From Promethearchaeota archaeon (GTDB lineage: Archaea > Asgardarchaeota > Lokiarchaeia > Sigyniarchaeales > SOKP01), in the NCBI GenBank assembly GCA_048940445.1, contig JBHLON010000003.1, positions 50,626 through 114,625 of the forward strand: 64,000 bases of DNA, written 5' to 3'. Under the pieces are notes generated by a model. It was not told the origin of the DNA. It was given only the letters and a program-made list of their open reading frames with translations, and did not search any database. Made by a program: the position numbers and the translations under genes. This document shows, in pieces, positions 12,371 to 48,134 of the stretch; within the stretch, counting starts at the first letter, position 1, and every line of letters starts with the position of its first letter.

Positions 12371-14152
12371 ATGAGCAACTTAATAATTAAAAATGGATTT
12401 GTATATGACCCGCTCAATAAAATCGACGGCGAAAAGAAAGATATCTACATTAAAGATGGACTCATTGCCGAAAAAGTTAATACCGACGCAAAAGTAATCG
12501 ATGCTTCTGGAATGGTAGTGATGCCGGGTGGTGTTGATATGCATACCCACATCGCTGGACCCAAAGTCAACATTGGACGAGCTCTACGACCCGAAGATAA
12601 AGTCCCTGAATCAAACCTAAAGAAAACTAAGACTACACGATCTGGAACAGGTTTTAGCGTGCTCAGTACATGGTATACCGGTTATAAGTACGCCCAAATG
12701 GGCTATACTACAGCTGTTGAACCTGCAATGCCACTTCTCGAAGCTCGACACACCCATGAAGAATTCCTTGAAATTCCAATCATCGATAAAGCTGCCTTAC
12801 CCATATACGGAAATAATTGGTTCGTCCTGAAATATATACGCGACAATGATATTGATAAACTCACTGCTTACGTGAATTGGATACTCCAAGCAACCAAAGG
12901 ATATGCCATTAAAATCGTAAATCCCGGAGGGGTAGAAAACTGGGCATGGGGAAATGTGTGGCTTTTTATAGTCTGCACCCTAGAAAATTGTGAAAGTTTA
13001 GATGACCTAGTTTTCCATTGGAGCGTAACGCCTCGAAAGATTATTGAAAGTTTGGCAAAGGTTGCTGAGATTTTGAAACTGCCACATTCAATCCATGTTC
13101 ATTGTAATAATTTAGGGCATCCAGGAAACTTCAAGCATTCCCTTGAGACATTTAAAGTTTGCGAGAGCATAAAAGCTAATAATGGTCGAAAAACAAGTCT
13201 TCATGTAACCCATTGTCAATTTAATGCATACGGTGGTACAAATTGGAATGATTTCACCTCTGGAGCCGGTGAGATTGCCGAATACGTAAATGCACATAAG
13301 CATCTTACCATTGATTGCGGTCAAGTAGTATTTACTAAATATGCAACCACTACGATGACTGGAGACGGACCATGGGTCACAGATGAGTATCTTGTCTGTG
13401 CATGAAAGTTCGCGCTCCATCATTTAGGTGGGTATTCCAGCTGGGGTTCAAAGCCAGGCATTAAGTGGGTCAACGGGCAAGTAGAGGCAGAGTCAGGTTC
13501 GGGTATCGTGCCCTATTTTTTTGATCCTAAAAATAGTGTGAATGCGGTTCAATGGGCGATAGGTCTGGAGTTGATGCTTCTGATAAAGGATCCGTTTCAA
13601 ATTGGCTTTTCCACTGATCATCCAAACGGAGCGCCCTTTACCACTTATCCGATGGCGTTCAAATGGTTGATGGATCGAAAAAGTCGAGACGAGATGCTCA
13701 AGAATTCGGTCCATAAGAAGGCAAGTACAGCATCGACTTTATCTGATCTTGATAGAGAATTATCGCTCTACGAGCTTGCAATTGTCACACGAGCCGGTAC
13801 TTCGAAGATTCTTGGGATGAGGGATCGCGGTCATCTGGGTGTGGGAGCTCTTGGAGACGTTTCGGTATATAAATTAAACCCAAATAACTATACGGGACAT
13901 GATATTGAGAAGGCGTTTAGTTCGACAGCATACACAATTAAAGAAGGCACAATCGTGGTAAAGGATGGGGAAATCACGGCAGCTCCAATGGGAACTTTAC
14001 TGCGTGCTGAAGGCACACTAAAGGAGAATCTTATGGAGGAGATGCTTGATGACGTGCGCCATAGCTGGAGAGACCATTATAGCATAAACTTCAATAACTA
14101 TGCGGTTCAGGATGCTTACGCACCAAAAGAGAAAGTATTCAGAGGAAATTAA
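12371..14152 (+). CDS. fwdA: Formylmethanofuran dehydrogenase subunit A; join(12371..12953,12984..13376,13407..14152), 573 aa after removing two 30-nt introns
   Basis: PGGVDMHTHIAGPKVN, IKIVNPGG, LPHSIHVHCNNLG, HVTHCQF, TTMTGDGP, STDHPNGAPF. ORFs 12371 and 13508 are the same frame, separated by one TGA lying inside an insertion. Confidence 0.95.
12954..12983 (+). other. Putative 30-nt BHB-type mRNA intron 1 in fwdA
   Basis: GGGG-AA^A-TGTG...TGCA-CCCT-AG^A; excision turns WG-NVWLFIVCTLE-NC into WGKNC; outer exon helix is weak. Confidence 0.8.
13377..13406 (+). other. Putative 30-nt BHB mRNA intron 2 in fwdA (contains in-frame TGA)
   Basis: GGAC-CATG-GG^T-CACAGATGAG-tat-CTTGTCTGTG-CATG-AA^A-GTTC is a full BHB; excision gives GPWEFALHHL. 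Confidence 0.92.
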
Positions 14153-14161
14153 TTTTTTCTT

Positions 14162-15982
14162 TTATTTTTTTCTATTTAGGAATTCAACTTTATTATTTGT
14201 TTTCCAATATCCATTCGGTGGCATCTTAATATTCCATTCGCTTCTTAATTTGTGAAATGTACTTTTTGATGTAGAAAAGCGATCAACCAATTCATAATTA
14301 CGATATTGATATACTAGATCTTGAAGCTCTTGTTTATTGATACCCAAGTTTTTAAGTTTCATCTTTAAGTTTTCAAATGCTACACGTGATTCCGAAAAAT
14401 GTTTATCTTTTCTTTCTAATACTTTAATGTTTGATTTTTTACATAGATTTGTCATTTTATTAAAATATTTTGCCCCAACAAATAAAGAATATTGAGCTTG
14501 TTGCAAGTGTATCTTTCCACTTTTATCTTTATAGTATTTTGATTCAATAGTTCTTAAAATTGAATTATCTACATTCAATGCATGTTTCATTCTAACTAAG
14601 AATTGTTTGGAGGTAGAACAGATACGGGTAGTTCCACTAAATCCATCTCCATCATAATAACCTCGGATATAACCCATTAATAATTCTTTTTTTGAATTCA
14701 TATTAACTCCTTTTGGAATATCTTGTTTATAAAATTTTGGTAGTGATTTTCTTTTTGCCTTTGAAGAGCTGAAACCTTGTAATTCCAGATCTTTAGCAAT
14801 TTTATTATTTACAAAATTTAAATAAGCGTAATTATGGGATTTTCCCGTTTTATAATGATTTCTGGTTCTATATCTGATACGATTTTTATCTATTCCTATG
14901 TCTTGACATAATCTTTTTATTAGGACATCATCTTTTTTTGATAATTCTATGAAGATAACTTTCTTAGGAGTTTTTCTTTTGGTTTTAATTCCATTTTTGT
15001 AATAATGTTTCTTAGTCATAACACTTCCATCAGCCATCAAAAATCCGAGCCAATAAGCTTTTTGAAGAGTATTGATTTTGTTAAAATAGTTTATTTTCAA
15101 GTTGGGTTTATGCAAGTGCCATTGTTGGCAAGACTTATCTTTTAAGTCAGTATGGTGGCTAACATAACTGTTAATATGATTAACAAGGTTTTTAGCTTTC
15201 TCATTTGGAAAGTTAGATTGTATATTTTTTATGAATCTATTCAGAATTTCTTTAGAGAATTTATATATTGGATTATATAGTTTAGAATTTGGATTAAATC
15301 TTGGCATTATAGCTTGTTGGATGTAATCATATCCTTTCTTGCTGTTGATGTCATAAATATATTTGCTTAATTTCCAGTAAGATAATTCATCACGGTATTT
15401 TTCGTTTGGGACGAGTTTTCCGACTTCTTTTCGTAGTTTTTCGACGAGCCATAAGGTTGAGTACTTGGGGAGTATATTTCCTTGTTTATCTTTTATGATA
15501 TCGTTATTATGTTGTTTTGTAGAGGAGGGTTGTTTTATTTCATTATTTTTGGAGAATTTTTTATAGAGAAGGGCATCTTTGGGGTTAATAATTTTATTTT
15601 TTGATTTAATATTGTTGGTTAGCTGTGGTGGTTGGATTTTGTTGAAACTTGGATGTTTAAGTTCGGATTTGTTCTTGGAAGGTTTGTTGGGAGAGATTAA
15701 GATTCCTTTGGGTATTTTTAGTTTGGGGATACCTTTTGGATCAAGCCCCCAGCATTTGGGAGGTGGGGATATATCATTAATTTTGGGGTTGAGAATATCT
15801 TCTGGTGAGACTATTCTTGGATCAAGAATTTTGTTGTACTGAGGCGTGGTATAAGAACCAGATGGGTATTTAGGATGAGTTATTTTATTATGGGGGGTGT
15901 CTTCCTCCTGGATTTCAGGGTTGTGGAGTTCTTCTTTGATATCTTTTTTCGGGGATTGTGATTTACATTTACATTTTTCCAT
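14162..15982 (-). CDS. Free-standing LAGLIDADG homing-endonuclease-family protein with long low-complexity N-terminus
   Basis: Two motifs, AYWLGFLMADGSV and YIRGYYDGDGF; C-terminal IKMPPNGYW. Confidence 0.85.
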   Translation of the reverse strand: MEKCKCKSQSPKKDIKEELHNPEIQEEDTPHNKITHPKYPSGSYTTPQYNKILDPRIVSPEDILNPKINDISPPPKCWGLDPKGIPKLKIPKGILISPNKPSKNKSELKHPSFNKIQPPQLTNNIKSKNKIINPKDALLYKKFSKNNEIKQPSSTKQHNNDIIKDKQGNILPKYSTLWLVEKLRKEVGKLVPNEKYRDELSYWKLSKYIYDINSKKGYDYIQQAIMPRFNPNSKLYNPIYKFSKEILNRFIKNIQSNFPNEKAKNLVNHINSYVSHHTDLKDKSCQQWHLHKPNLKINYFNKINTLQKAYWLGFLMADGSVMTKKHYYKNGIKTKRKTPKKVIFIELSKKDDVLIKRLCQDIGIDKNRIRYRTRNHYKTGKSHNYAYLNFVNNKIAKDLELQGFSSSKAKRKSLPKFYKQDIPKGVNMNSKKELLMGYIRGYYDGDGFSGTTRICSTSKQFLVRMKHALNVDNSILRTIESKYYKDKSGKIHLQQAQYSLFVGAKYFNKMTNLCKKSNIKVLERKDKHFSESRVAFENLKMKLKNLGINKQELQDLVYQYRNYELVDRFSTSKSTFHKLRSEWNIKMPPNGYWKTNNKVEFLNRKK

Positions 15983-16128
15983 TTTAATTATTTATTGTGA
16001 TAATTATTCTTGAGAGTTGATTAGGAGTAGATCTATTTAAATGAAAAATCGTGAAATGAGGATAGAGAATATTTAATAGTGATACCATCATTTTGAAATA
16101 TGTTAGCCGATATGGTAAATCTTTTTAG

Positions 16129-17037
16129 GTGGTTGTTGTCGGTTTGATTTTAAATATGATTGTCTTAATTTCATCATCTATTTATATTATATTTTTATTT
16201 TGGAAAAAAACCAGTACAAAGAACCAGAAACGAGGAAAGTATGATCTTTTTATAAAGAAACTCCAAAAGAAACTAATATATAGACCAGATAGTCATATTC
16301 TATGGGATAATTTAGGTCTTGCTTATTATGTGAGCGGAGAATTAAATCTTGCGTGTGATGCTTATAAAAAAGCTCTTGAGACTAGCGAAGATTCAAGGTC
16401 TGCTTTACTAGGGATAAGTGATGTTTATGTGGCAATGGAGGAATTTGAATTAGCTTTAGAGTTTTGCTATCAAGCTTTTAAGGGTAAAGCGGAGATGAAG
16501 ATTGATGCAACTACAATGGATATGATGGAGCAAGCATTAGTAAAACCTTATATAGGAGATGAACATATTTGGCATACTCTTAGTTCCATTTATGCGAAGA
16601 TGGAAGATTATGAACAAGCAATCACTGCAGCGGAAAAAGCCTTAGAGATTAATCCTAAATTAAAAGAATCCTGGTTAATATTAGCATCAATCTATAACAA
16701 TATTGGTGAACATGATAAAGCTATCGATGCTGCTGAAAAGGCATTAGAGATTGATGCTAAGGAGTATCTTGCATTGGGGCATAAGGGGTATGCTTATTAT
16801 AAAAAAGGAAATAAAGACTCGGCATTTGAATTATTGAATAAAGCAATCTCTCTCAATCCGAAATCTGCACATCTTTGGTATCTATCAGCTGTAATCAATT
16901 TAAACATGAAAAATTATGATAAGGCTCTTGAGGCTGTTGATATTAGTTTACATTACAGATCTCATGACAAAGTAATACAGAAACTTCGAAAGGAAATTAT
17001 TGATTTAAGATTGAAAGATTTGGCGAGCAAGGCTTAA
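16129..17037 (+). CDS. Membrane-anchored TPR protein
   Basis: N-terminal TM, then repeats such as W.NLG.AY and A..A.EKALEINP. Confidence 0.88.
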   Translation: MVVVGLILNMIVLISSSIYIIFLFWKKTSTKNQKRGKYDLFIKKLQKKLIYRPDSHILWDNLGLAYYVSGELNLACDAYKKALETSEDSRSALLGISDVYVAMEEFELALEFCYQAFKGKAEMKIDATTMDMMEQALVKPYIGDEHIWHTLSSIYAKMEDYEQAITAAEKALEINPKLKESWLILASIYNNIGEHDKAIDAAEKALEIDAKEYLALGHKGYAYYKKGNKDSAFELLNKAISLNPKSAHLWYLSAVINLNMKNYDKALEAVDISLHYRSHDKVIQKLRKEIIDLRLKDLASKA

Positions 17038-17284
17038 CAACTTGTTTAAAGCGGACTATCTAAGATTTTAGTAATATATTCTTCTCTGGTGGCACTATTG
17101 AAAAGTAAGGCATATTACTTTTTTGATTTTTAGAATAATTTAGTTCATTTTCATAGAGAGTATCGTAACATTTGTTTGGTCATGTCCTAAACCTAATAAT
17201 CAAAGGTTTTTTGTATTCGAAATGTTTTAAATTAAAAGTAAAATTTCAACCTAATAGAATACTAGAAAGAATTTTAATTTTAAA

Positions 17285-18559
17285 ATGGTAAGAGAACGTA
17301 TATTTTGGCAACTTTTTGGTAAACGATTAGTGAGTTATAAAGAACTTGAGAATGGGGAAATAGTAGGTACTGGATTTTTAAACCCAATTATAGATAGATT
17401 TCGCCTAATAATTATGCTTATTTTTCAGACTAACTATTATAAAAATTATAACTTGGGTCAATGGCGTGGAAAAAGAGTCGCAAATACATTTTCCCCCCCA
17501 ATAGGCAGTCGAGCTATGTTCCGAGCTATAAAGAACGTGATTAGAGGAAAAATATTAAGACATGCTCGACCGATTGCTATGACATTTGCAGTTACGTATA
17601 AATGCCAATGCAATTGTGTCCATTGTAGTGCAGGGAAGTTTCAAAAAGTAAACATTCCTGAATTAAGTACAGAGGAGGCAAAAAGGGTAATTGAAGAAAG
17701 CCAAAAGCTTGGAGTATCAATCATAGCTTTTACAGGTGGCGAACCTTTATTACGTAAAGATATTTTTGAGTTGATCTCACATGTCAATCAAAAAAAGACA
17801 GTTCCGATACTATTTACTAATGGCTTACTTCTTACTCAAGAGAATGTAGATAAATTATCTAAAGCAGGATTATACTCCCTCTTTGTAAGCATAGATAGTC
17901 CAGTTCCAGATGAACATAATAAATTAAGAGGTATGATTGGTCTTTTTGAAACAGCTATAGAAGGAATTAAACGCGCGAAAGAGATAGGTATATTTGTTGG
18001 ATTTTCATCCTATGCTACGCAATCATCTACTAAAGCAGGAAAGTATAAAGAAATTCATGAACTCGCAAAAAAATTGGGATTACATAATGTGATGTTATTT
18101 GATGGTGTTCCAACTGGAAAAATCTTGAAAGATACAAGAGAACTTCTAACAGTGGAGCAACATGAAGAAATTCGTGAATTTTCATCAAGATTACATAAAA
18201 GTAAAATTGTTCCCCCGCTCTCTTCACAATCTTGGCAAAATTCTATTGAATCTTATCTTGCAGGTGTTGGATGTTTAGCAGCATATATTCAATACTATAT
18301 CACAGCATATGGGGAGGTAACTCCATGTGACTTTACTCCTTTATCATTTGGTAATATTCGTGATGAACCTTTAAAGAAAATTTGGATAAAGATGATCCAT
18401 CATCCCGTTTATAGACATCGAGTAACTGCTTGTAGAATGCAGAATGCAAAATTTCGCTACTTTTATATTGATCCAATTCCTGATGAGGTTAAACTTCCAT
18501 ATGATATCAATAAACTTCCAGCGGTAGATTACCGAAAAGAACAAATTCCTAATAATTAA
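17285..18559 (+). CDS. Radical SAM/SPASM-domain protein
   Basis: CQCNCVHC (CxxxCxxC), FTGGEPLL, C-terminal GCLA...GEVTPCDF. Confidence 0.92.
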   Translation: MVRERIFWQLFGKRLVSYKELENGEIVGTGFLNPIIDRFRLIIMLIFQTNYYKNYNLGQWRGKRVANTFSPPIGSRAMFRAIKNVIRGKILRHARPIAMTFAVTYKCQCNCVHCSAGKFQKVNIPELSTEEAKRVIEESQKLGVSIIAFTGGEPLLRKDIFELISHVNQKKTVPILFTNGLLLTQENVDKLSKAGLYSLFVSIDSPVPDEHNKLRGMIGLFETAIEGIKRAKEIGIFVGFSSYATQSSTKAGKYKEIHELAKKLGLHNVMLFDGVPTGKILKDTRELLTVEQHEEIREFSSRLHKSKIVPPLSSQSWQNSIESYLAGVGCLAAYIQYYITAYGEVTPCDFTPLSFGNIRDEPLKKIWIKMIHHPVYRHRVTACRMQNAKFRYFYIDPIPDEVKLPYDINKLPAVDYRKEQIPNN

Positions 18560-18603
18560 TTATATTACTTAAAAATCAAGGTTAATTATCAAAATACAAT
18601 TTA
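18466..18603 (+). repeat. Direct repeat copy A (3' end of radical SAM gene plus downstream sequence)
   Basis: Core ATCAATAAACTTCCAGyGGTAGATTACCGAAAAGAA recurs at ~21340-21477. Confidence 0.85.
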
Positions 18604-18721
18604 CACATGATAAGCACAAATCCTAAAAAACTTTAAATGCAAATATCTTTAATTTCAATTTTTATTTGATTAATTTTATTTTTTTAAAAGAAAAATGGGA
18701 ACAAAAAAAAATAAATAATGA

Positions 18722-21196
18722 TTAATCTATTTTTTTCTTTCTATGTCTTACTATTGATAAAACTGCTATACTTATCACAGCAGCTACACTAATAATATAA
18801 ATTAAAATAATCAGTTCGATTGGAACTCCGCTGGTTCCTTGACCATACATGCAATCACCATTATTGCTAAAAGAATTTCCTTGGCAAAATTGTTCAACGA
18901 TACATTCATTATTTCCTATTAACGTATTTCCCGAAATTGTATTATAATTACTGCGATATAAGGATATCCCGAAATTATTTTCATTGGCAGTATTACCCTG
19001 GATAGTGTTATAATAACTGTAAAATAATTCTATCCCATTAAAAGGGTTATTATTTGCGGTGTTTCCTGAAACTGTGTTATAATAACTGGAAATTAATTCT
19101 ATCCCATTAAAAGAGTTATTATTTGCGGTGTTTCCTGAAACTGTGTTATAATAGCTGTAAAATAAGATTATCCCACTAAGAAAGTTATTATTTGCGAAGT
19201 TTCCTGAAATGTCGGAACTATTACAACCTATTAGACAAATACCATAATCATTGTTATTTGCAATGTTTCCCGAAATGGTGTTATGATCACAACGTACTAG
19301 GTTTATCCCATAAAGATTATTATCTACAGTGTTTCCCAAGAGGGTATTGTTATAAGAATAGTATAATGAAATTGCATTAGTACTATAAGAAATCTCCAAG
19401 TCTCTTATTAATGAATCATTGCAATTGACCAGTATAACTTGTCCAGCATCAAAAAAATCGTCTGATCTTAAATTTTTTTCATTAACATAATAATATAATG
19501 GTTTTCCATTCACTAGATTTGTAGTGCTAATATCTTGGGAACTCAAAAGTTCAACTGAACCCTCAATAATTAATCCACATTTATTCATAATATTTCCTGA
19601 AACTGTGGTATGATTATTTGAGTATAAGACTATTCCATATGAGCTATCATCTATGATGTTTCCCGAAATGGCGGTATGATCACATTTTTCCATTCGTATC
19701 CCATATTGATTGTTATTTGCGTTGTTTCCTGAAACTGTGATATGATTATTTGAGAATAAGTCTATTCCATCTGTGTTATCATCTATGATGTTTCCCGAAA
19801 TGATGGTATGATTACAGCCTTCCAGTTGTATCCCATCGTTATTATCATTTACAGTGTTTCCCGAAATAGCGGAATTATTACTACTCAATAGATAAATACC
19901 AAAAAAGGCATTATCATTTGCGTTGTTTCCCGAAATAATGGAATTATTACTATTTAATAGAAAAATACCAAGGGTATTGTTATTTACGATGTTTCCTAAA
20001 ACAGTGATATTAACGCTATTTATTAAAGAGACACCGTAATAATTGCAACTTGCGTTGTTTCCCGAAATGGTGGTATAATTACTCTCAGATAAAGGTATCC
20101 CAAATAGATTATTATTTGCGATATTTCCCGAAATAGTGGAATTGTTACTATCTAATAGATAAATACCATTAGTATTGTTATTTACGATGTTTCCGAAAAC
20201 AGTGATATTAACGCTATTTATTAAAGAGATACCATAATAATTGTTATTTGCAGTATTACTCAAAATGTTAATATCATTACATGACCTTATGTCGAATCCA
20301 TTATTATTACTATTTGCTATATTTCCTGAAATTGTAATGTTAGTACAATAAGAGACTGAAAATCCTATAGCAATATGAGAAACACTCAAGTTTGATACCA
20401 ATGAATTATGACAATTGATCAGTATCACTTGCCCTCCATTTATAAAATCGTTCAATCCCAAATTAATTTCATTAATGTAATAATATATTGGTTTATCATT
20501 CACTAAATTTGTGGTGTCTATTCTATTTGGTAATATTCCCTCCCACAACCTAATTCCACAATTAATCATTTTATTACCTGAAATCGTGTTATTAATACTA
20601 TAGTATAAATTTATCCCCATATAGTTGTTATTTAAAGCGTTTTCTGAAATTATATTATTGTTACTATTGAATAAATTTATCCCATCATTATTATCATTTA
20701 CACTGTTTCCAGAGATCGTATTATTAATACTAAAGATTAAAGTTATTGCTGTATCAAAATTATTACTCACGTTATTGTTCATTATTAGTCCATTCGTAAC
20801 GTTACTTAAATAAATACCTGAACCAACAGCATAATTTCCTGAATTATGTAATGTACAATTTTTAATTATAAAAGATACATTAGAGTTTTGAATCAAGATA
20901 CAATTTCCTAGACCACCTCCATCTATCTCCACATCTTCTATAACAAAGGGCTCTGAGTAAGTGCCATTCCCAGTACATATTCCAGTATTTTTAGCCACAA
21001 ACCAATTAGAACTTGGATCATTATCATCAATATAAATTGGGGGGGATAAAGCTGAAATTTTAAAATTTTCATGATCTGAATTAATATATTCTCTAAAATC
21101 TGAAATTTCATAATTAAAACTAAAGGAAATCATTGGTGAAAAAAGGAAAAGGATACCTAAAATAATTAAGACTATTTCATCGTGATTTGATTTCAT
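18722..21196 (-). CDS. NosD/CASH right-handed beta-helix surface protein with C-terminal TM
   Basis: Many NN.ISGN.ANNN..GI.L repeats; likely ATG start at 21196 (MKSN, matching the paralog); C-terminal TM plus RKKK. Confidence 0.9.
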   Translation of the reverse strand: MKSNHDEIVLIILGILFLFSPMISFSFNYEISDFREYINSDHENFKISALSPPIYIDDNDPSSNWFVAKNTGICTGNGTYSEPFVIEDVEIDGGGLGNCILIQNSNVSFIIKNCTLHNSGNYAVGSGIYLSNVTNGLIMNNNVSNNFDTAITLIFSINNTISGNSVNDNNDGINLFNSNNNIISENALNNNYMGINLYYSINNTISGNKMINCGIRLWEGILPNRIDTTNLVNDKPIYYYINEINLGLNDFINGGQVILINCHNSLVSNLSVSHIAIGFSVSYCTNITISGNIANSNNNGFDIRSCNDINILSNTANNNYYGISLINSVNITVFGNIVNNNTNGIYLLDSNNSTISGNIANNNLFGIPLSESNYTTISGNNASCNYYGVSLINSVNITVLGNIVNNNTLGIFLLNSNNSIISGNNANDNAFFGIYLLSSNNSAISGNTVNDNNDGIQLEGCNHTIISGNIIDDNTDGIDLFSNNHITVSGNNANNNQYGIRMEKCDHTAISGNIIDDSSYGIVLYSNNHTTVSGNIMNKCGLIIEGSVELLSSQDISTTNLVNGKPLYYYVNEKNLRSDDFFDAGQVILVNCNDSLIRDLEISYSTNAISLYYSYNNTLLGNTVDNNLYGINLVRCDHNTISGNIANNNDYGICLIGCNSSDISGNFANNNFLSGIILFYSYYNTVSGNTANNNSFNGIELISSYYNTVSGNTANNNPFNGIELFYSYYNTIQGNTANENNFGISLYRSNYNTISGNTLIGNNECIVEQFCQGNSFSNNGDCMYGQGTSGVPIELIILIYIISVAAVISIAVLSIVRHRKKKID
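19005..19200 (-). repeat. Near-identical 66-bp tandem coding repeats in the beta-helix gene
   Basis: SYYNTVSGNTANNNxxNGIEL units are nearly identical at DNA level. Confidence 0.8.
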
Positions 21197-21339
21197 ATCA
21201 GTTTCGCTAATATAATTTTTTTTAGAACTAAAATATATTTTAAAGCTTTCCTTTATAAAGCTTTGTTTCAATTATAGGGGTAAATTTTTATTCAGGTAAG
21301 CTAAAAATTGTTTGAAAGCTCTATTAATTCAAAAGCCAT

Positions 21340-21477
21340 TATTGAAGCTAATTCCTAATGGTGTTATATTTCTATATAACATCAATAAACTTCCAGTGGT
21401 AGATTACCGAAAAGAAGTAATTCCTAATTCTTAATTAAATTACTTTAAAATCACGAAAGTTATTAAAAGACAATTTA
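21340..21477 (+). repeat. Direct repeat copy B (orphan radical SAM 3' fragment)
   Basis: Matches 18466-18603. Confidence 0.85.
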
Positions 21478-21495
21478 AGGATATACTGAAAAATT

Positions 21496-22587
21496 TTATG
21501 TACAATTATCTTTAATTTCAAAATTCTTTTTTTTTATATAGATTATAATTACTATGATTGAAAGTGTACTAAATAAAAAGATTAAGCTATACCCTGAAAT
21601 TAATGGTGTTGATACTTGATCATATGTACAATCTCCATTATTACTAAAAGAATTTCCTTGGCACCTTTCTTCAGAGATGCATTCATTATTTCCTATTAAA
21701 GTATTTCCCGAAACTATGTTAAAATCACTATATGATAAATATATTCCACGATCATTGTTATTGGCGGTGTTTCCCGAAATTATGTTAAAATCACTATAGG
21801 AGAAAAATAACCCACGATCATTATTATTGGCGGTGTTTCCCGAAATGATGTTATTATGACTAAGTCCTAAATATATCCCCAGGCTATTGGAATTTACGAT
21901 GTTTCCCGAAATGACATTGTCATAACAATTTATATGTAAATAGATTCCCCAATTAGTATTATTACTTACGATGTTTCCCGAAATAATGTTATTATTACAA
22001 TTATCTAATTTTATCCCATAACCATTATTATTTGCAATGTTTCCTGACATAGTGATATTATTGCAATTTTCTAAATAGAACCCATAACCATTATTATTCG
22101 CAATATTTCCTGACATGGTGATATTATTACAATTTTCTAAATAGAACCCATTAGCACTAAATATACAATAGTTAATAACCAAATATCCTTCAATAACATT
22201 GTTCAGGTGAATACCTGAATTTGGATAAGGAAATCCTGCTGTGAGTGTACAATTTTCAATTTTAAAATAGACATCGGAATTCTCAATCAAAATACAAGTT
22301 CCTGATTCTCCACTATTTATTTCTAAATCCTCTATAACATAAGGCTCGGAATACGTACCATTTCCTGTACAGATTCCAGCAATCTTGGCAGTTGTCCAAT
22401 TATTATTAATATGAATTTGTCCCGAAATTTTTGAAGGTTGCAAAATGTCAACATTTGAATTAAAATCATCATTATAGCTTAAATTCTTGTTAGTACCTAT
22501 AATATAACTAGAATTATTAAAAATTGATGGTAAAAAAGCAAAAATGAGTACTAAAATTATTAAGTTCGATTTTGTGTTTGATTTCAT
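21496..22587 (-). CDS. NosD/CASH beta-helix surface protein with Loki-CTERM-like tail
   Basis: GICTGNGTYSEPYVIED shared with the paralog; ISGY-hydrophobic-KKK tail. Confidence 0.9.
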   Translation of the reverse strand: MKSNTKSNLIILVLIFAFLPSIFNNSSYIIGTNKNLSYNDDFNSNVDILQPSKISGQIHINNNWTTAKIAGICTGNGTYSEPYVIEDLEINSGESGTCILIENSDVYFKIENCTLTAGFPYPNSGIHLNNVIEGYLVINYCIFSANGFYLENCNNITMSGNIANNNGYGFYLENCNNITMSGNIANNNGYGIKLDNCNNNIISGNIVSNNTNWGIYLHINCYDNVISGNIVNSNSLGIYLGLSHNNIISGNTANNNDRGLFFSYSDFNIISGNTANNNDRGIYLSYSDFNIVSGNTLIGNNECISEERCQGNSFSNNGDCTYDQVSTPLISGYSLIFLFSTLSIIVIIIYIKKKNFEIKDNCT

Positions 22588-35599: not shown

Positions 35600-36691
35600 T
35601 TAACTTTCAAAATTGAGGGGATATGTACCCCATTTTTTTATCGCTTTTGGGATTGTCATAATATTATTCAATGAGACGCCCCAAGGTAAGCAACAAATAG
35701 GGCTCACAGCATATCTTCCTCCAGGAGCTAATTTCTTGATGTTTTCTTTTACTATATTTTCAACATCACGTGAAGTACCATTGAGTAATTCCCTACTTAC
35801 ATCTATATTCGCTCCTAATATTGTCACCTCAGGATGATTCTTCTTAAATTCAACCCAATATTCAATATCTAATGGATGTGAACCATTCACCGCCAATAAC
35901 TCTAGTTCATTACACATTTCATCAAAATAAGGATTAGTTCCACAATTATGGAGAATAATCCTTGCTTTTGTTTCTTTCTGTAATTGTTTAATAAATTGTC
36001 CTTCATATTTCATAGCATTTTCAAAACTCATCATGTGTTTATTAAACGCATAACCAGTAAAGAAAATTGTTCGACTGGCTCCCACTTTTTCAATAAAGAA
36101 GTTATACAAATCCAATTGAGATTGATACACTTTTTCACAGAGCTTTAATAACAGTTCAGGGTTACGACGCATATCTCGATATGCTTGTACCCCTCTCAAT
36201 TCTTGGACTACCGACCAAATTCCAAGAGAACAACTCAGTTGAAACCTTGTTTTTTCTTTAACAAGATTAGTTGCTGAGAGACAAGTATCCCATAATGAGA
36301 TTTTACTATGATCTGGTATCTCTAATCTTTCGATATCTTCTTCAGATTTGCAAATATCACCTTGCTTAACCATAAATACTTTATAGTCAGACCATTTAAT
36401 TACATTTTCTTTATTATTTGCTTCTGCAAATGCCAATGCTTCAGCAGGACCGGCATAAGCCGTTGGAATTGAAAGTGTGTCTGCTTTTATGAATTCATAT
36501 GTCGCAATAGCAGCATTTGCATAAGCTTTAGGTGAAGAAAGAAGCTCTCGAAGGGTTTTACCTGATATTCGGCATATTAATTCTTCGCATGCGAGCGGAA
36601 AAAAGGGTACTCGGTCAATATCTGATAATCCAGCAAAAGTAGCTCTTATTCTACGGGTAGATGCTTCCCAATCATGTGGCACTTTAAACAA
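35600..36691 (-). CDS. MtaA/CmuA (uroporphyrinogen decarboxylase family) corrinoid methyltransferase
   Basis: DRVPFFP, ILHNCG zinc motif, SPICCLP; next to a corrinoid protein. Confidence 0.85.
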   Translation of the reverse strand: MFKVPHDWEASTRRIRATFAGLSDIDRVPFFPLACEELICRISGKTLRELLSSPKAYANAAIATYEFIKADTLSIPTAYAGPAEALAFAEANNKENVIKWSDYKVFMVKQGDICKSEEDIERLEIPDHSKISLWDTCLSATNLVKEKTRFQLSCSLGIWSVVQELRGVQAYRDMRRNPELLLKLCEKVYQSQLDLYNFFIEKVGASRTIFFTGYAFNKHMMSFENAMKYEGQFIKQLQKETKARIILHNCGTNPYFDEMCNELELLAVNGSHPLDIEYWVEFKKNHPEVTILGANIDVSRELLNGTSRDVENIVKENIKKLAPGGRYAVSPICCLPWGVSLNNIMTIPKAIKKWGTYPLNFES

Positions 36692-40585: not shown

Positions 40586-40620
40586 ATGGGATAATAGATG
40601 TATATCATTAATCAAATCTT

Positions 40621-41037: not shown

Positions 41038-41068
41038 TAAATGCATTTAAATACTTACAAGTATAAGA

Positions 41069-41665: not shown

Positions 41666-41694
41666 ATAAAAATAAAAGAAAAATGTTAAAAAAC

Positions 41695-43212: not shown

Positions 43213-43278
43213 TTCTCAATAAATCATTTAAATTTTATTTGAAATATTTTTAATCCAAAACTATTTTTTCAAAAAACT

Positions 43279-43536: not shown

Positions 43537-43867
43537 TTATTTTATCTTTCCAGAGACTAATTATTTGAATATAATTCTTCAATTTAATATACTCTTTTTT
43601 CTTTAATAAGTATTTTGAATAATAATATACTTAAACGATTCCTTTAATCCTAATTTCGATTTGAAACTAAAACTAAAATAATGTTTAAATCTGAAACCCT
43701 CAATAGAAATTCAAGAGATGAACTTACATTATTGGAAGTTGAAATATATGTAAAAATGGCACTTAATTTTTTATAAAAAAAAAGATTTGTTAATTAGCGG
43801 ATGTTCATCTCATATAACACTTCTTTGATCTATATAAAAATTTTAGAAAAGTGAGCAAGCACTCAGG

Positions 43868-44416
43868 ATGAATAATAATCAGATAAAATTAGATAAAATT
43901 GATTTGAAGCTGATCTCAGTTTTACAAAAAGATCCCAGTTTAACTCATTACCAAATTGCCGAAATTATTAATCGGAGTCAACCGACTGTAGGAACTAGGG
44001 TAAGAAAACTTAAAGAAAAAGGAATTTTACAATTTCAAGCAGGGATAAATTTCAAAAAAATTGGAATTCAATTAGCAATTGTAAATTTAAATACAAAAAA
44101 TCCAGAGGAAATAGTAGACATGGTAAATGATTGCCCTTTTATGCTAAATGCGTTTAGGCTAAGTGGAACGTTTAATATGTCTGTTTTAATCGCAAATACA
44201 AATCTAAGAAAGTTAAATAACGTGGTCGATCAACACTTTAGAAATAATTCCAATGTTCAAAAAATTGTGATAGAATTCATAACAGATACTGTAAAAAATT
44301 TTATTCTTCCAATTGACATTGATTCTGAACTTATTTTACCAAATTTAGAAGATGGTTGTAGCTCTAATTGCAGATATTGTGAATATAATAGAATAATGAG
44401 GTTCAAAAAATCTTAA
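43868..44416 (+). CDS. Lrp/AsnC transcriptional regulator with Cys-rich tail
   Basis: LDKIDLKLI..LQ, IAE...RSQPTVG.RVRKL. Confidence 0.9.
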   Translation: MNNNQIKLDKIDLKLISVLQKDPSLTHYQIAEIINRSQPTVGTRVRKLKEKGILQFQAGINFKKIGIQLAIVNLNTKNPEEIVDMVNDCPFMLNAFRLSGTFNMSVLIANTNLRKLNNVVDQHFRNNSNVQKIVIEFITDTVKNFILPIDIDSELILPNLEDGCSSNCRYCEYNRIMRFKKS

Positions 44417-44440
44417 ATAATTGAATCTTCAACTAAAAAA

Positions 44441-45460
44441 TCATAAAATCAAAGATTTAATTTTATCGTCTTCAATTTTTTTACATGTAATTATATTATC
44501 CAATTTTTTAGAGTCAAATCCATAAATTATTGATCCACAGCTTTCTTTCAAGTCTGAATACCTAAGTGTGACTCCAGCAGCAAAATTAATCGTATCATTA
44601 TCATATTTTCCTTGAATAATAGTTGTAGGTCCTGGTACTTCTTTAGCTTCCATCATTAAATCTTTTGAATTTTTAATTTGAGTTAGCATATTATTTTCGA
44701 ATTCATTCCTACCTATAATTATTTTAGAATTTTTATACCTAATATGTCTTCCGTATTTAAGAAAATTAATCTCGGGCATTGCTAAATCTTCATTAAAAGT
44801 AATATAGTCTCTCATTCTTCTAGAAAATTGTTTATCGGTTAATAAGCAACCACCACATGCAAAATATTTATTCAGAAGGCCATATTTTCTTGCTAGTTCG
44901 AGTTGTATTTTTCTACTCCTACCCTTTATTCCCATCAATTTAGATCTATCAATTAATCCACTTTTTTCTACATTAGTAGGTGGTAATAATAAAGCGGACA
45001 ATGGTCTTAATAACTGACCTGTAAGACCAGATTCATTTTCTACTATTTTTAAAGCCTTTAAATTTTGAGATTTAGGTCTCTGATCTAAAACTTCTCCAGT
45101 AAATACAAAATCTGCTCCCAATTTTTTCATAATTTTCATTGCTTTTTTGAGGATGTAAATCCTACAATCAATACAAGGATTTAAGTTTTTCCCGTATCCA
45201 AATTTTGGATGGCGTATGATCTCTAAATAGTCATCTCCTTTTTGAGCAAATAAAACGGAAATTCCTAACTTTTCATAATAGAGATTTAACCCACATTCTG
45301 AACTTTTTAATGCTTTATCGCAGATACAAAATGGAGATTTAAAATTAAGTCCGATAACTTCTATACGTTGTAACTTTATTAATAGCGAAGAAATTAGACT
45401 GTCCAATCCTCCTGAGACTAATCCTATTCCGACAATACTTGCATTTTTTTTATTTTTCAC
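44441..45460 (-). CDS. ThiI/MnmA-like tRNA thiouridylase with DUF814-like C-terminus
   Basis: SGGLDS PP-loop, NPCIDCR, TGEVLDQRPKSQ, GGCLLTD, GRH, IIGRNE. Confidence 0.88.
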   Translation of the reverse strand: MKNKKNASIVGIGLVSGGLDSLISSLLIKLQRIEVIGLNFKSPFCICDKALKSSECGLNLYYEKLGISVLFAQKGDDYLEIIRHPKFGYGKNLNPCIDCRIYILKKAMKIMKKLGADFVFTGEVLDQRPKSQNLKALKIVENESGLTGQLLRPLSALLLPPTNVEKSGLIDRSKLMGIKGRSRKIQLELARKYGLLNKYFACGGCLLTDKQFSRRMRDYITFNEDLAMPEINFLKYGRHIRYKNSKIIIGRNEFENNMLTQIKNSKDLMMEAKEVPGPTTIIQGKYDNDTINFAAGVTLRYSDLKESCGSIIYGFDSKKLDNIITCKKIEDDKIKSLIL

Positions 45461-45855
45461 GCTATAGCACCATAATTTATTTAGGTTAAAAATGTGGGAA
45501 TTTTTCTTCTTTATTCTTTTAATTAATCTATTTATTATTCAAATAATCTAACCATATTATATTAAGTAATCGGTGATTTAAGAACATCATTTTTAAAAAA
45601 GGATGCAAAAATTGCATTTAATTATATATATAAAAAATTGTAATTCTAATTAAAAGAAATTAAATTCAATCCAATATTGGATTTTGTCCTCTATTAAACC
45701 TTGGTTTAATCTTCCTATTTGAATTATTTTCTTTAATTGAATTTAACTTCTTTTTTACTTTTTTCTAGAGATTTTCCTGGGAAAACCTTATGAAAGAAAA
45801 TTTATGAACCAGCAAAAAATTTTAGAGAATTTAAAATCATTATTAAGATAAATTA

Positions 45856-46398
45856 TCAATCAGAATTTCGAATTTTATTAATATTGGAGCGTCTTGAAAT
45901 AATCAAGGAGATTAGACTCTTTAAAATAGTAGAAAAAACTGCCAAACAACCACCAATTAATGGTAATATTCCACCAGAAAGAGTCCAATAATTCCAGAAT
46001 GATGAGTCCATTAAATTCATTTCGATATAAAAGAATAATACTCCAGAAATCATTAATAGACCACTAACTAGCCAAAAAATGGAAGAAATCCATACTTTTG
46101 ACCAAGTTTTAACTTTTCTTAGTAATAATGGTAAAGAATTTATCAATAAGAAAATACAAGCAATTATAATAACTAATAAGGTGGTCATACCAACTCTATA
46201 CAATACACTATCGGTTCCATAATAATCATACTGGGGGCCTATGGGATAATGATCTATCTTAAATCCTAAAAGAAAATAATCACTATTAAAACCAGTTTCA
46301 GAATGGTGGACAAAAGGAGAAAATACTGATAAAAAACCTAGAATCACTGATATGATATTTAGCAGCCAAATATAATCCTTTATATTTTCTAATTTCAT
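45856..46398 (-). CDS. Hypothetical 4-TM membrane protein
   Basis: 180-aa hydrophobic ORF. Confidence 0.7.
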   Translation of the reverse strand: MKLENIKDYIWLLNIISVILGFLSVFSPFVHHSETGFNSDYFLLGFKIDHYPIGPQYDYYGTDSVLYRVGMTTLLVIIIACIFLLINSLPLLLRKVKTWSKVWISSIFWLVSGLLMISGVLFFYIEMNLMDSSFWNYWTLSGGILPLIGGCLAVFSTILKSLISLIISRRSNINKIRNSD

Positions 46399-46563
46399 TT
46401 TTCATTATCATTCTCAAATTTCTGAATTAATTATTCTATTAAGAGAGAAGTTTATATAAAAAATTTTACATAAAGTTTTATAAATAGAAAGTTTATGCCT
46501 TGATTTTTTAGATAATTTTTTTTAAATTTTAAATTAAATACTATAAATTGAATAATTAATTTT

Positions 46564-48006
46564 CTATAATTTCTTATCTTCTACTTCTATATCCATTTCT
46601 ATTAACCTTTTTCTAATATAATCGCTGATGTCAAATATCTTTTTTTCTCTCAGTTTCTCTCGCGTTTTGGTCAAAATATCGATTAAATCTTTTATTTTTT
46701 TATCTTTCTCACTAAATTCTTCAATTTGAACATCACTAAGCTTTTGTTCTATATTCGGAAAAATACCTAAGATTTCTTCTATGAAATCAACGAATTCGAA
46801 AAACTTTTCTTTGAATTTAGTATTTATTTTTATACTTTCTTCGAATATTTTTTTATTTATTTCTCTAAATAGAGTGAATAATTCTGCTAATGCGACAGGA
46901 GTATCAAAATCATCATCCATTGCAGTGATTATTTTTTTTGATGTTTCATTTATTTGGGTTAATAATTGTTGGATTTGTTTAGATGAGTCATCATTAATTT
47001 CAACCTGATTGATTCTTTTTATAGTATTAAATAATCTTTCATAATTTTTACTGGCTTGATTTATATTATCAAGTGAATAATTTATGGAATTTCGATAATG
47101 ACTAGATACAAGAAATAAGCGAATAACCATGGGATCAAATTCTTTTAGAAGCTCTGATACCAAGAAATAATTGCCTAAACTTTTCGACATTTTTTCATCA
47201 TTAATATTAACAAATCCATTATGGAGAAAATAATTGGCAAAAGGTTTTCCAGTATATGATTCAGATTGGGCAATTTCATTTCGATGATGAGGGAATTTCA
47301 AATCCTGACCTCCTCCATGTATATCAATAGTCTCACCTAAGAAATTTAGAACCATGGCTGAGCATTCTATATGCCATCCTGGTCTTCCTTTACCCCAAGG
47401 ACTTTCCCAGAAAGGTTCACCTTCCTTCATTTTTTTCCATAAAGCAAAGTCTCTAGTATCCAATTTATCTTCTCCGAAAGCTGTATCTTGATCTCCTAAA
47501 TAATCTTCATTTTCTTCCTCAACATTACTTTCTTTTACATTTTGCAGGATTGTGTTATATATTGGAAATGTCTTGACTGAAAAATAAACAGATTCATTTC
47601 TTTCATAAGCATGACCTTTTTTAATTAACTCTTTAATAAATTCAATTATAAATGGAATGACTTCAGTAGCTCGTGGATTTTTTGTTTCCTTCTTAATGTT
47701 CAGAGCTTTTGTAACATCTTGATACTCTTTAATATATTTTTTGGCTAACTCCTGAACATCAGCATTTAATTCATGGGCTCGTTTTATGATTTTGTCGTCT
47801 ATATCCGTATAGTTCTTAACAATGGTCACATCATACTTTTTATATTTAAAATACCGATGAATTACATCAAATGCAACTGCTGATTTTGCATGACCCAGAT
47901 GTGGGCTATCATATACAGTCGGTCCACATACATACATTTTAATTTTATTTGGTTCAAGAGTCTTAAATTCTTCTTTTTCAAATGTCAAACTATTGTATAT
48001 TCTCAT
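46564..48006 (-). CDS. cysS: Cysteine--tRNA ligase
   Basis: MYVCGPTVYD..HLGH, DFALWK, GRPGWHIECSAM, HGGGQDLKFPHH, KMSKS. Confidence 0.98.
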   Translation of the reverse strand: MRIYNSLTFEKEEFKTLEPNKIKMYVCGPTVYDSPHLGHAKSAVAFDVIHRYFKYKKYDVTIVKNYTDIDDKIIKRAHELNADVQELAKKYIKEYQDVTKALNIKKETKNPRATEVIPFIIEFIKELIKKGHAYERNESVYFSVKTFPIYNTILQNVKESNVEEENEDYLGDQDTAFGEDKLDTRDFALWKKMKEGEPFWESPWGKGRPGWHIECSAMVLNFLGETIDIHGGGQDLKFPHHRNEIAQSESYTGKPFANYFLHNGFVNINDEKMSKSLGNYFLVSELLKEFDPMVIRLFLVSSHYRNSINYSLDNINQASKNYERLFNTIKRINQVEINDDSSKQIQQLLTQINETSKKIITAMDDDFDTPVALAELFTLFREINKKIFEESIKINTKFKEKFFEFVDFIEEILGIFPNIEQKLSDVQIEEFSEKDKKIKDLIDILTKTREKLREKKIFDISDYIRKRLIEMDIEVEDKKL

Positions 48007-48031
48007 ATTTAATCACCTTAAGAAAAAAGAA

Positions 48032-48134
48032 AGCCAGTGATGGGAATTGTAGATTAGAGAGAATTCCAAAAATCTTTTGCACCCATGAATAACGGCTCTG
48101 CAGGCCGCCTCCTTAACTGCTCGGATACACTGGC
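48032..48134 (-). tRNA. tRNA-Cys(GCA) with a 30-nt intron in the T-loop (48046-48075)
   Basis: Acceptor GCCAGTG/CACTGGC plus U73, anticodon arm GCGGC-CTGCAGA-GCCGT, T stem ATGGG/CCCAT enclosing 37 nt instead of 7. Confidence 0.95.
48046..48075 (-). other. Non-canonical (59/60) BHB tRNA intron, 30 nt
   Basis: ATGGG-TGCA-AA^A-GATT...AATC-TACA-AT^T-CCCAT; excision yields T-loop TGCAAAT. Confidence 0.88.

What the first reader, a model, noticed from the sequence alone, without database searches (positions are those of the whole stretch)
12954..48075. A uniform 30-nt micro-intron class shared by mRNA and tRNA
Seen: all three BHB introns in the window (12954-12983, 13377-13406, 48046-48075) are exactly 30 nt despite different sequences. 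The two fwdA introns share GTCTG at the same intron positions 18-22. All three 5' exons have CATGGG ending 3, 0 and 6 nt before the cut. Inference: a common birth or mobility mechanism (reverse splicing, or a size-ruled insertion process) or a size-selective splicing machinery, i.e. a family of tiny introns spreading from tRNA into coding genes. With n=3, coincidence is possible, since Trp codons supply TGG.
Basis: partly seen in the sequence, partly recalled or inferred. Interest (0 to 1): 0.82.

Follow-up and report, generated by a model that had tools for sequence, protein, structure and literature searches.

The report
Thirty-base introns in Asgard genes
An Asgard (Loki-type) archaeon carries tiny, about 30-base introns of the tRNA-splicing kind not only in its tRNA genes but also inside protein-coding genes, which matters because such introns in protein genes were known almost only from one gene of distant archaea.

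Summary
Window 12954-12983 and 13377-13406 are exact 30-nt insertions in fwdA. Each is a 10-residue gap against solved FwdA, and each is a clean 30-nt gap in 19 and 18 of 20 same-genus genes. Window 48046-48075 is a 30-nt T-loop insertion in the only tRNA-Cys gene I could find. All three fit bulge-helix-bulge (BHB) geometry.

Splicing was inferred, not seen; no RNA data were available.

The genome holds two more such introns in protein genes: 30 nt in an AIR-synthase-like gene and 31 nt in uvrA. Covariation across species supports two of the structures. The genome encodes a two-paralogue EndA and RtcB.

The size claim is partly right:
- 14 of 16 curated mRNA and non-anticodon tRNA introns are 28-33 nt (median 30).
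- Orthologous introns stay at 30±1 nt while their sequences diverge.
- Anticodon-loop introns are mostly 18-20 nt.

The "family spreading by copying" idea is not supported:
- The introns are no more alike than shuffled sequences.
- No donor copy turned up in this genome, 153 related genomes, or the viral and metagenome collections.
- GTCTG is near chance, and CATGGG occurs at only 3 of 19 sites.

How the introns arise, and why they are about 30 nt, remains open.

The parts
12371..12953 (+). fwdA exon 1 (formylmethanofuran dehydrogenase subunit A)
   Evidence: ORF and translation. Collinear with solved FwdA chains.
12954..12983 (+). fwdA intron 1: 30 nt, in frame, no stop codon. Relaxed BHB with central helix GGGG/CCCU, bulges AAA and AGA, and a weak outer helix.
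   Evidence: Shows as a 10-residue gap in solved FwdA. Present in 1 of 20 genus genes and at this site in 0 of 80 further loci. It is the only indel of 14 nt or more in 33.6 kb aligned to G017. DNA contigs of runs X4, X5 and X7 bridge it. Its motif score alone lies within background.
12984..13376 (+). fwdA exon 2
13377..13406 (+). fwdA intron 2: 30 nt, canonical hBHBh', carrying the gene's only in-frame stop (TGA 13403-13405)
   Evidence: Fold z = -2.9. Shows as a 10-residue gap in solved FwdA. Present at exactly 30 nt in G000, G017, L023, L044 and L064. 91.6% of cells pair, and there is an exon-intron compensatory change in the central helix.
13407..14152 (+). fwdA exon 3, including the stop codon
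48076..48134 (-). tRNA-Cys(GCA) 5' exon: acceptor, D arm, anticodon arm, and T stem with T-loop up to position 59
   Evidence: ARAGORN call on the spliced sequence, score 113.7. Intron-free orthologues in G019 and G012 reach 58.7 and 57.9 bits with Rfam tRNA.
48046..48075 (-). tRNA-Cys T-loop intron (between positions 59 and 60), 30 nt. The outer helix is the T stem (5 bp), the central helix is UGCA/UACA with one C.A mismatch, and the inner helix is 4 bp.
   Evidence: Present in 2 of 25 genus orthologues (G000 and G017, both 30 nt, 7 differences). The T arm is continuous in the other 23.
48032..48045 (-). tRNA-Cys 3' exon: last T-loop base, T stem, acceptor strand and discriminator U

Best explanation
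The three elements are real archaeal bulge-helix-bulge introns in an Asgard (Promethearchaeota, Loki-type) genome.

Inferred mechanism: the transcript folds so that the two cut sites lie in 3-nt bulges either side of a 4-bp helix. A two-subunit EndA endonuclease cuts both bulges, and RtcB joins the exons. This restores the FwdA reading frame and the tRNA-Cys T-loop.

They belong to a larger set. Protein-coding genes (fwdA twice, uvrA, an AIR-synthase-like gene) and non-anticodon sites of tRNAs in this genus carry BHB introns of a narrow size, about 28-33 nt with a mode of 30. Seven of those nucleotides are fixed by the motif and 21-26 form the inner hairpin. Anticodon-loop introns form a separate, shorter class.

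The shared size does not come from shared sequence ancestry or copying. Orthologous introns keep 30±1 nt while their hairpins turn over by compensatory changes. I therefore infer either a constraint on total length or a birth process that delivers about 30 nt. Which of the two applies is not known.

The introns were gained at different times. fwdA intron 1 is in this species only. The tRNA-Cys intron is shared with the nearest relative. The others are older and patchily distributed, which needs repeated precise loss or exchange between species.
For: Insertions at exact sites:
-.

The genes are broken unless the insert is removed, yet they stay intact on both sides:
- fwdA intron 2 carries a TGA.
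- The AIR-synthase-like intron carries a TAA, and the read-through still matches AIRS and AIRS_C.
- The uvrA intron is 31 nt, so it shifts the frame. Exon 1 ends at FSFNEPSG, aligned to residue 274 of chain 3pih_A. Exon 2 begins at residue 296 of a different chain, 9gxk_A (CxxCxGxG). Collinearity rests on this motif order.

Motif strength among ORF-breaking candidates of 24-40 nt:
- Of 838 candidates, three score 23.5, 19.2 and 15.8. The next scores 9.9.

Covariation:
- AIR-synthase-like intron, 5 species: 96.7% of cells pair, against 30-54% when partners are slid. Five pairs changed on both sides, reached by 1 of 500 shuffles.
- fwdA intron 2, 5 genomes: 91.6% of cells pair, 5 pairs changed on both sides, and the central helix changes A-U to U-A between an exon base and an intron base.

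tRNA-Cys:
- It is callable only after splicing.
- The other ARAGORN 'Cys' call fits Gly(GCC) better once its BHB intron is removed (score 122.6).

Enzymes:
- EndA alpha-like, 201 aa, matches 3p1z_B at 3e-38 and keeps Tyr, His and Lys.
- A second paralogue of 205 aa lacks the His.
- RtcB scores 560 bits.

Sizes:
- 16 curated mRNA and non-anticodon introns have median 30. Six are exactly 30, nine are 29-31, and fourteen are 28-33.
- 9 anticodon-loop introns have median 20. Mann-Whitney p = 0.008.
- Orthologue lengths: AIR-synthase-like 30 in 5 of 5; fwdA intron 2 30 in 5 of 5; uvrA 31, 31, 31, 30; tRNA-Trp T-loop 30, 31, 30, 30; tRNA-Cys T-loop 30, 30.

Against: - No RNA evidence. Splicing itself was not observed for any of these introns.
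- fwdA intron 1 has a weak outer helix. Its fold is no better than shuffles and its motif score of 11.2 lies within background. It is in frame without a stop, so it could be translated as a 10-residue insertion.
- A strong motif alone can mislead. The best in-frame candidate (C2:23966-23998, score 20.4) proved to be ordinary conserved coding sequence.
- My tRNA census is incomplete, at about 30 loci. Seven ambiguous loci were dropped before the length count, and several boundaries are uncertain by 1-2 nt.
- Related species have 26-29-nt D-loop introns, so the size class is a narrow band and not an exact ruler.
- A preprint on other Asgard families reports median lengths of 22-23 nt (10.64898/2026.10.13.758758, passage seen).
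- Length conservation among orthologues could simply reflect few indels in short hairpins.
Confidence: 0.8

Rival explanations
1. A mobile intron family. One 30-nt element copies itself, by reverse splicing or another copy-paste route, from tRNA genes into coding genes. On this view the shared length, GTCTG and CATGGG are marks of common descent or of a target site.
For: - Three gains confined to G000 or to G000 plus G017 are all exactly 30 nt.
- All three have CATGGG within 6 nt upstream. That hexamer occurs only 762 times on both strands of the genome, about 0.1 per kb per strand.
- fwdA intron 2 is scattered on the FwdA tree, needing at least 4 state changes among 74 genes. Transfer between lineages could produce this.
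Against: - No second copy of any of the three introns exists in this genome.
- The 24-nt core of the newest intron, allowing up to 3 mismatches, is in 0 of 153 other genomes of the order. It has no exact match in the metagenome or viral collections.
- The best pairwise score among 19 introns is 16, against a shuffle mean of 18.1.
- CATGGG is present at 3 of 19 sites. It serves as T stem, as central helix, and as central helix plus bulge in the three cases, at offsets of 6, 3 and 0.
- The nearest empty fwdA site (G017) reads CTTGGG, not CATGGG.
Confidence: 0.12
2. Coincidence. BHB introns here have a broad length range, and three of exactly 30 nt in one window is luck.
For: - Anticodon-loop introns of 18-48 nt exist.
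- Among the 13 other mRNA and non-anticodon introns only 3 are exactly 30, so three exact hits have a chance of about 1%. Part of the exactness is therefore luck.
- A motif-only scan shows no peak at 30: 312 candidates at that length against 279-362 per length overall.
Against: - 14 of 16 curated introns lie in 28-33 nt.
- The ORF-breaking introns found by a scan open to 12-120 nt are 30, 30 and 31 nt.
- Orthologues keep 30±1 nt.
Confidence: 0.08
3. Not introns. The fwdA inserts are translated or tolerated, through TGA read-through or selenocysteine, as a 10-residue insertion, or because the gene is dying.
For: - Both fwdA inserts are multiples of three.
- Intron 1 has no stop and only a weak motif.
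- No RNA data exist.
Against: - Intron 2 has exact BHB geometry with covariation that includes an exon base.
- It has been kept with its stop in 5 genomes whose flanking reading frames stay intact.
- uvrA carries a 31-nt insert that no recoding of a stop could repair.
- The residues encoded by intron 1 (NVWLFIVCTL) are absent from all 19 genus orthologues and from the solved enzymes.
Confidence: 0.05

Closest known systems
BHB intron in cbf5 pre-mRNA of Crenarchaeota (Watanabe 2002; Yokobori 2009, PMC2738675)
   Same: A BHB intron inside a protein-coding gene, tied to hetero-oligomeric EndA, with gain and loss among related species. The sizes are similar: 33, 36 and 39 bp in some species, not changing the reading frame (passages seen).
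   Different: - The host genes differ (fwdA, uvrA, an AIR-synthase-like gene).
- The lineage differs (Asgard).
- There are several introns per genome and two in one gene.
- The band is narrow at about 30 nt and is shared with non-anticodon tRNA introns.
- Splicing is not shown here, whereas it was shown for cbf5 (abstract).
[quoted passage not shown]
   Same: Many introns at D-arm and T-arm sites, sitting at BHB motifs. Gains are repeated and often terminal. Two EndA paralogues are common. No route of arrival was found (abstract and passages).
   Different: - That study treats tRNA genes only; the word 'mRNA' occurs 0 times in its text.
- It reports median lengths of 22-23 nt in its panels, against about 30 nt here.
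Intron transposition among tRNA genes in Thermoproteales (recalled from memory; not read here)
   Same: Short non-canonical BHB introns at many tRNA positions in lineages with broad-specificity EndA.
   Different: As I recall, that case rests on sequence-similar introns at different sites. Here similarity was tested and not found.
XBP1/HAC1 unconventional mRNA splicing in eukaryotes
   Same: A small mRNA intron removed without a spliceosome and sealed by RtcB. RtcB's role in XBP-1 splicing is named in the abstract of PMC8718801 (listing).
   Different: The cutting enzyme is IRE1, not EndA, and the RNA motif differs (recalled). No regulatory role is shown here.
Putative 12-bp introns inserted into genes of an archaeal virus (Peng et al., as cited in PMC2738675)
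   Same: Fixed-size mini-insertions appearing in protein-coding genes by an unknown mechanism (passage).
   Different: 12 bp instead of about 30 nt. The host is a virus genome. Splicing was not demonstrated there either.

Membership tests
Archaeal BHB introns | Two 3-nt bulges on opposite strands separated by a 4-bp helix, with cuts after the second base of each bulge | tested here: met
   - fwdA intron 2: 4 of 4 pairs, CAUG/CAUG.
- fwdA intron 1: 4 of 4 pairs, including one G.U.
- tRNA-Cys: 3 of 4 pairs, with a C.A mismatch.
Archaeal BHB introns | Flanking helices outside (h) and inside (h') the motif | tested here: inconclusive
   - fwdA intron 2: h 5 bp, h' 10 bp.
- tRNA-Cys: h 5 bp (the T stem), h' 4 bp.
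- fwdA intron 1: h only 1 bp, h' 4+4 bp with one bulge, which is a relaxed form.
Archaeal BHB introns | Removal restores a functional product | tested here: met
   The FwdA product becomes collinear with solved FwdA. tRNA-Cys is called only after removal. Intron-free orthologues reach 58 bits with Rfam tRNA.
Archaeal BHB introns | Structure maintained by compensatory change | tested here: met
   Met for fwdA intron 2 and for the AIR-synthase-like intron. Not testable for fwdA intron 1, which has a single sequence.
Archaeal BHB introns | Excision by EndA and ligation by RtcB, seen in RNA | not testable with these tools
   The enzymes are encoded. No RNA run is listed for this DNA.
cbf5-type pre-mRNA BHB introns | Host gene is cbf5, in Crenarchaeota | tested here: not met
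   The hosts are fwdA, uvrA and an AIRS-family gene. The organism is labelled Promethearchaeota in the relatives' record titles. It works like the cbf5 intron but is not a member of that set.
Transposed (sequence-related) tRNA intron families | Introns at different sites share sequence beyond what the motif forces | tested here: not met
   The best pair score is 16, against a shuffle mean of 18.1 and a 95th percentile of 22. There are no extra copies in this genome or across the order.
(alpha-beta)2 splicing endonuclease | Two paralogous subunits, one with the catalytic Tyr/His/Lys and one without | tested here: met
   The C3 ORF (201 aa) aligns to the A. pernix chain 3p1z_B with Tyr, His and Lys kept. 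The C62 ORF (205 aa) reads EEAAKY where relatives have REHSKY. Both hit PF01974 and PF02778. Assembly into a heterotetramer was not tested.

The most novel reading that the evidence does not exclude
In this Loki-type genus a still-active process creates new hairpin introns of about 30 nt from no detectable template. It places or retains them wherever the transcript can form a BHB, in tRNAs and protein-coding genes alike. The introns then move between species or are lost precisely. That would be ongoing intron gain in protein genes, with a size ruler, in the closest prokaryotic relatives of eukaryotes.
Probability: 0.3. Interest if true: 0.88.

Novelty: new variant of a known kind. Interest (0 to 1): 0.78.

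Why it matters
BHB introns in protein-coding genes have been a curiosity tied to one gene, cbf5, in Crenarchaeota. Here an Asgard genome has at least four, in three unrelated genes: fwdA (central carbon metabolism), uvrA (DNA repair) and an AIR-synthase-family gene of unassigned role. Two of them have covariation support, and their ages are datable, one being species-specific.

This has three consequences:
- It gives a natural series for asking how protein-gene introns are born, kept and lost in the lineage nearest to eukaryotes.
- The narrow size of about 30 nt is a concrete, testable clue to the birth process or to a constraint in the splicing machinery.
- Gene callers will split or truncate such genes, and tRNA finders miss the tRNAs. 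Metabolic reconstructions of Asgard genomes, for example 'fwdA broken' or 'no tRNA-Cys', can be wrong for this reason.

Tried and rejected
RNA evidence: no RNA holder is listed for fwdA, and only DNA contigs could be laid.

Scans that did not discriminate:
- A motif-only BHB scan of the whole genome is dominated by chance hits in this 30% G+C DNA. It gave 20,076 candidates with h>=3 and h'>=4, between 279 and 362 per length, with no peak at 30.
- Of 1,760 ORF fusions, nearly all are A+T-rich and look like neighbouring genes. I accept only three. C88:2541-2605 (65 nt) and C73:6099-6156 (58 nt) remain unresolved.
- In-frame scan, sense against antisense: the tail at score >=16 holds 10 against 4, a weak excess.
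- The top in-frame hit, C2:23966-23998, was rejected as conserved coding sequence. C62:16374-16412 and C61:47656-47691 were fetched but not tested.

tRNA calls:
- ARAGORN's tRNA-Leu with a 421-nt intron (C47:86488-87005, window about 35863-36380) has no Rfam support at E<=1. I treat it as spurious.
- Seven tRNA loci were dropped before the length count because several solutions scored alike: C66 (Ala or Ser), C67:18063 (Phe), C72 (Ile), C97:3201 (Pro), C97:10688 (Arg or Asp), C61:59341, and C119 (Lys or Gln).
- Anticodon-loop lengths of 25, 27, 29, 48 and one of the 18s are ARAGORN's own and were not checked against a BHB.

Donor searches for the introns all found nothing:
- This genome.
- 153 other genomes of the order.
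- Metagenome and viral collections, exact matches only.

Literature: five searches found no report of BHB introns in Asgard protein-coding genes. Subscription journals and supplementary files were not visible.

Considered and set aside: TGA as selenocysteine or read-through, and a target-site duplication (none is seen at the filled sites).

Full report
WHAT IS AT THE COORDINATES

The window is 30% G+C DNA. It comes from a 3.64-Mb, 139-contig assembly that is 93% complete. The nearest FwdA relatives carry record titles 'Promethearchaeota' or 'Promethearchaeia archaeon', that is, Loki-type Asgard archaea.

fwdA occupies 12371-14152 in one reading frame, interrupted by a single TGA at 13403-13405. 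Against solved FwdA structures (E about 1e-184) the protein is collinear except for two 10-residue insertions, exactly at 12954-12983 and 13377-13406.

I aligned the gene with its orthologues from 19 other genomes of the same genus:
- The first segment is present in 1 of 20 (this genome only).
- The second is present in 2 of 20 (this genome and G017).
- All other genes have clean 30-nt gaps and an unbroken codon series across the site.

Contigs from other public runs carry both segments in DNA, so they are not assembly errors.

STRUCTURE

Segment 2 folds into a textbook motif:
- outer helix CGGAC/GUUCG
- 4-bp helix CAUG/CAUG
- 3-nt bulges GGU and AAA
- 10-bp inner hairpin

Its MFE is -25.3 kcal/mol with z = -2.9.

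Segment 1 has the 4-bp helix GGGG/CCCU, bulges AAA and AGA, and an 8-bp inner hairpin with one bulged base. Its outer helix is only 1 bp, and its fold is no better than shuffles.

On the minus strand at 48032-48134 lies a tRNA-Cys(GCA) with U73. Its T-loop is split after position 59 by 30 nt. The T stem serves as the outer helix, and the central helix has one C.A mismatch. Neither ARAGORN nor Rfam sees the gene as it stands. After the 30 nt are removed, ARAGORN scores it 113.7. Intron-free orthologues in G019 and G012 reach 58.7 and 57.9 bits with the Rfam tRNA model. The odd T-loop UGCAAAU is conserved through the genus.

THE SET IS LARGER THAN THE WINDOW

I scanned the genome for BHB motifs of 12-120 nt whose removal fuses two open frames of at least 60 codons that are otherwise broken. 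There were 313,226 motifs and 1,760 fusions. Ranked by pair strength, the leaders are a site on contig C61, fwdA intron 2, and, among inserts of 16-45 nt, a site on contig C63. Everything else is A+T-rich and looks like neighbouring genes. A second scan of 24-40 nt scored by hairpin energy gives 23.5, 19.2 and 15.8 for these three and 9.9 for the next of 838.

C61:8911-8940, 30 nt with a TAA inside:
- It splits an AIR-synthase-family gene (Pfam AIRS and AIRS_C).
- It is present, always at exactly 30 nt, in 5 of 25 aligned genus genes.
- 96.7% of cells pair, and five base pairs changed on both sides, one of them in the exon-exon outer helix.

C63:31206-31236, 31 nt, frame-shifting:
- It splits uvrA between FSFNEPSG and CLACKGRG.
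- Exon 1 ends at residue 274 of chain 3pih_A. Exon 2 begins at residue 296 of a different chain, 9gxk_A. Collinearity rests on the conserved FSFNxPxG-CxxCxGxG order.
- It occurs in 4 of 19 aligned genes, at 31, 31, 31 and 30 nt.

fwdA intron 2 is older than the genus alignment suggested:
- Among 80 further fwdA loci (71 near full length), three carry a 10-codon insert with a stop at the same site (L023, L044, L064).
- All five copies are 30 nt and share a central TATCT.
- 91.6% of cells pair.
- In L044 and L064 the central helix reads CUUG/CAAG instead of CAUG/CAUG. This is a compensatory change between a synonymous exon base and an intron base.
- On a FwdA tree of 74 genes the bearers are scattered, needing at least 4 changes of state.

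AGES

- fwdA intron 1 is found only in this genome. It is the only indel of 14 nt or more in the 33.6 kb of the window that aligns to G017.
- The tRNA-Cys intron is in 2 of 25 orthologues (G000 and G017, both 30 nt, 7 differences).

LENGTHS

Standard tools find only about 20 tRNAs. To find the rest I removed BHB candidates, singly or in pairs, from G+C-rich islands and re-ran ARAGORN. This recovered the following.

T-loop introns:
- Trp 30
- Cys 30
- Lys 30
- Tyr 28
- Met 32

Other non-anticodon introns:
- Met position 48: 33
- Gly position 16: 28
- Val position 15: 31
- Arg: 31
- Leu(UAA): 28 and 36
- Ser(GCU) position 25: 18

Anticodon-loop introns are 18, 18, 18, 18, 20, 25, 27, 29 and 48 nt.

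Seven loci with several equally good solutions were dropped. With the four mRNA introns this gives 16 introns: median 30, six exactly 30, nine within 29-31, and fourteen within 28-33. The anticodon-loop class has median 20 (Mann-Whitney p = 0.008). The tRNA-Trp T-loop intron is 30, 31, 30 and 30 nt in four species although the hairpin sequences differ strongly. Relatives carry 26-29-nt D-loop introns in tRNA-Cys.

So the size is a narrow band with a mode at 30, not an exact ruler. Given 3 of 13 other introns at exactly 30, three exact hits in one window still hold some luck.

IS IT A SEQUENCE FAMILY?

No:
- None of the three introns has another copy in the genome.
- The core of the newest one, with up to 3 mismatches, is in none of 153 other genomes of the order. 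It has no exact match in the metagenome or viral collections.
- Among 19 introns the best local alignment score is 16, against a shuffle mean of 18.1.
- The shared GTCTG has P = 0.024 for that pair and 0.08 over the three pairs.
- CATGGG is rare in the genome (762 sites on both strands), and its presence upstream of all three window introns is striking on its face. But it is absent from the other 16 sites.
- CATGGG also lies at three different offsets and forms three different parts of the motif.
- At the empty fwdA intron 1 site of the nearest relative, the sequence reads CTTGGG.

I leave CATGGG as unexplained and probably chance.

MACHINERY

There are two EndA paralogues:
- A 201-residue protein is closest to the catalytic subunit of the A. 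pernix heterotetramer (3p1z_B, 3e-38). It keeps Tyr, His and Lys and aligns without gaps through the stretch that I take, from memory, to be the specificity loop.
- A 205-residue protein lacks the His.

Both hit the EndA Pfam families, and RtcB is present. This fits the (alpha-beta)2 type with the L1 loop that PMC5829648 reports for Asgard (passages).

WHAT IS SHOWN AND WHAT IS INFERRED

Shown:
- exact insertions
- BHB geometry
- covariation for two introns
- intact genes around frame-breaking inserts
- the size band
- the lack of sequence kinship
- presence of the enzymes

Inferred:
- that the RNA is cut and ligated at these sites
- that intron 1 is spliced and not translated
- that length is under constraint or is set at birth

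COMPARISON WITH THE LITERATURE

BHB introns in pre-mRNA are documented for cbf5 in Crenarchaeota. Sizes there are 33-39 bp in some species, with gain and loss among relatives (PMC2738675: abstract, passages). A 2026 preprint describes heavily interrupted Asgard tRNA genes, repeated gains at BHB sites, and no route of arrival. It does not mention mRNA, and it reports medians of 22-23 nt. Five full-text searches found no report of such introns in Asgard protein genes. Subscription journals and supplements were not visible.

VERDICT

- The wider finding, several BHB introns of about 30 nt in protein-coding genes of an Asgard genus, is a new variant of a known kind and well worth follow-up.

Noticed in passing
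G000 contig C61:8911-8940 (+), outside the window: A 30-nt BHB intron with a TAA inside an AIR-synthase-family gene. It is present at exactly 30 nt in 5 of 25 genus orthologues, with compensatory changes, one of them in the exon-exon helix.
   Followed up: yes
G000 contig C63:31206-31236 (-), outside the window: A 31-nt frame-shifting BHB intron in uvrA between FSFNEPSG and CLACKGRG. It is present in 4 of 19 genus orthologues (31, 31, 31, 30 nt) and absent from the two closest ones.
   Followed up: yes
window 14162-15982 (-): A 606-residue lysine-rich ORF directly downstream of fwdA. It has a weak LAGLIDADG_3 match (E 2.7e-4, below the cut-off) and four diverged paralogues in the genome. Window 14178-18831 has no counterpart in the syntenic G017 stretch. 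It may be a free-standing homing-endonuclease-like mobile gene.
   Followed up: partly
window 18832-22516: This stretch aligns many times, at 65-71% identity, to one roughly 1.2-kb region of G017 (C17, about 373.7-375.0 kb). It looks like an internally repetitive gene or repeat array.
   Followed up: no
window 13430-13456 (approximate): FwdA has a further 9-residue insertion (GYSSWGSKP) relative to the solved enzymes. All genus orthologues share it, so it is a lineage-specific protein loop and not an intron.
   Followed up: partly
whole genome G000: Standard tools find only about 20 tRNA genes in a 93%-complete genome. ARAGORN's anticodon assignments for intron-bearing genes are often wrong; for example, 'Cys' at C101:114284-114374 is better read as Gly(GCC) with a 20-nt BHB intron.
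   Followed up: partly
L161, L174-L180 (tRNA-Cys orthologues of G007, G013, G044, G022, G015, G020, G016, G011): The same tRNA-Cys carries 26-29-nt D-loop introns in seven relatives. It also appears to have a longer variable region (gctttcagcatc) in many. G044 seems to be interrupted near the acceptor stem.
   Followed up: partly
window 48032-48134 (-) and genus orthologues: The T-loop of tRNA-Cys reads UGCAAAU, with G where U55 is expected, throughout the genus.
   Followed up: no
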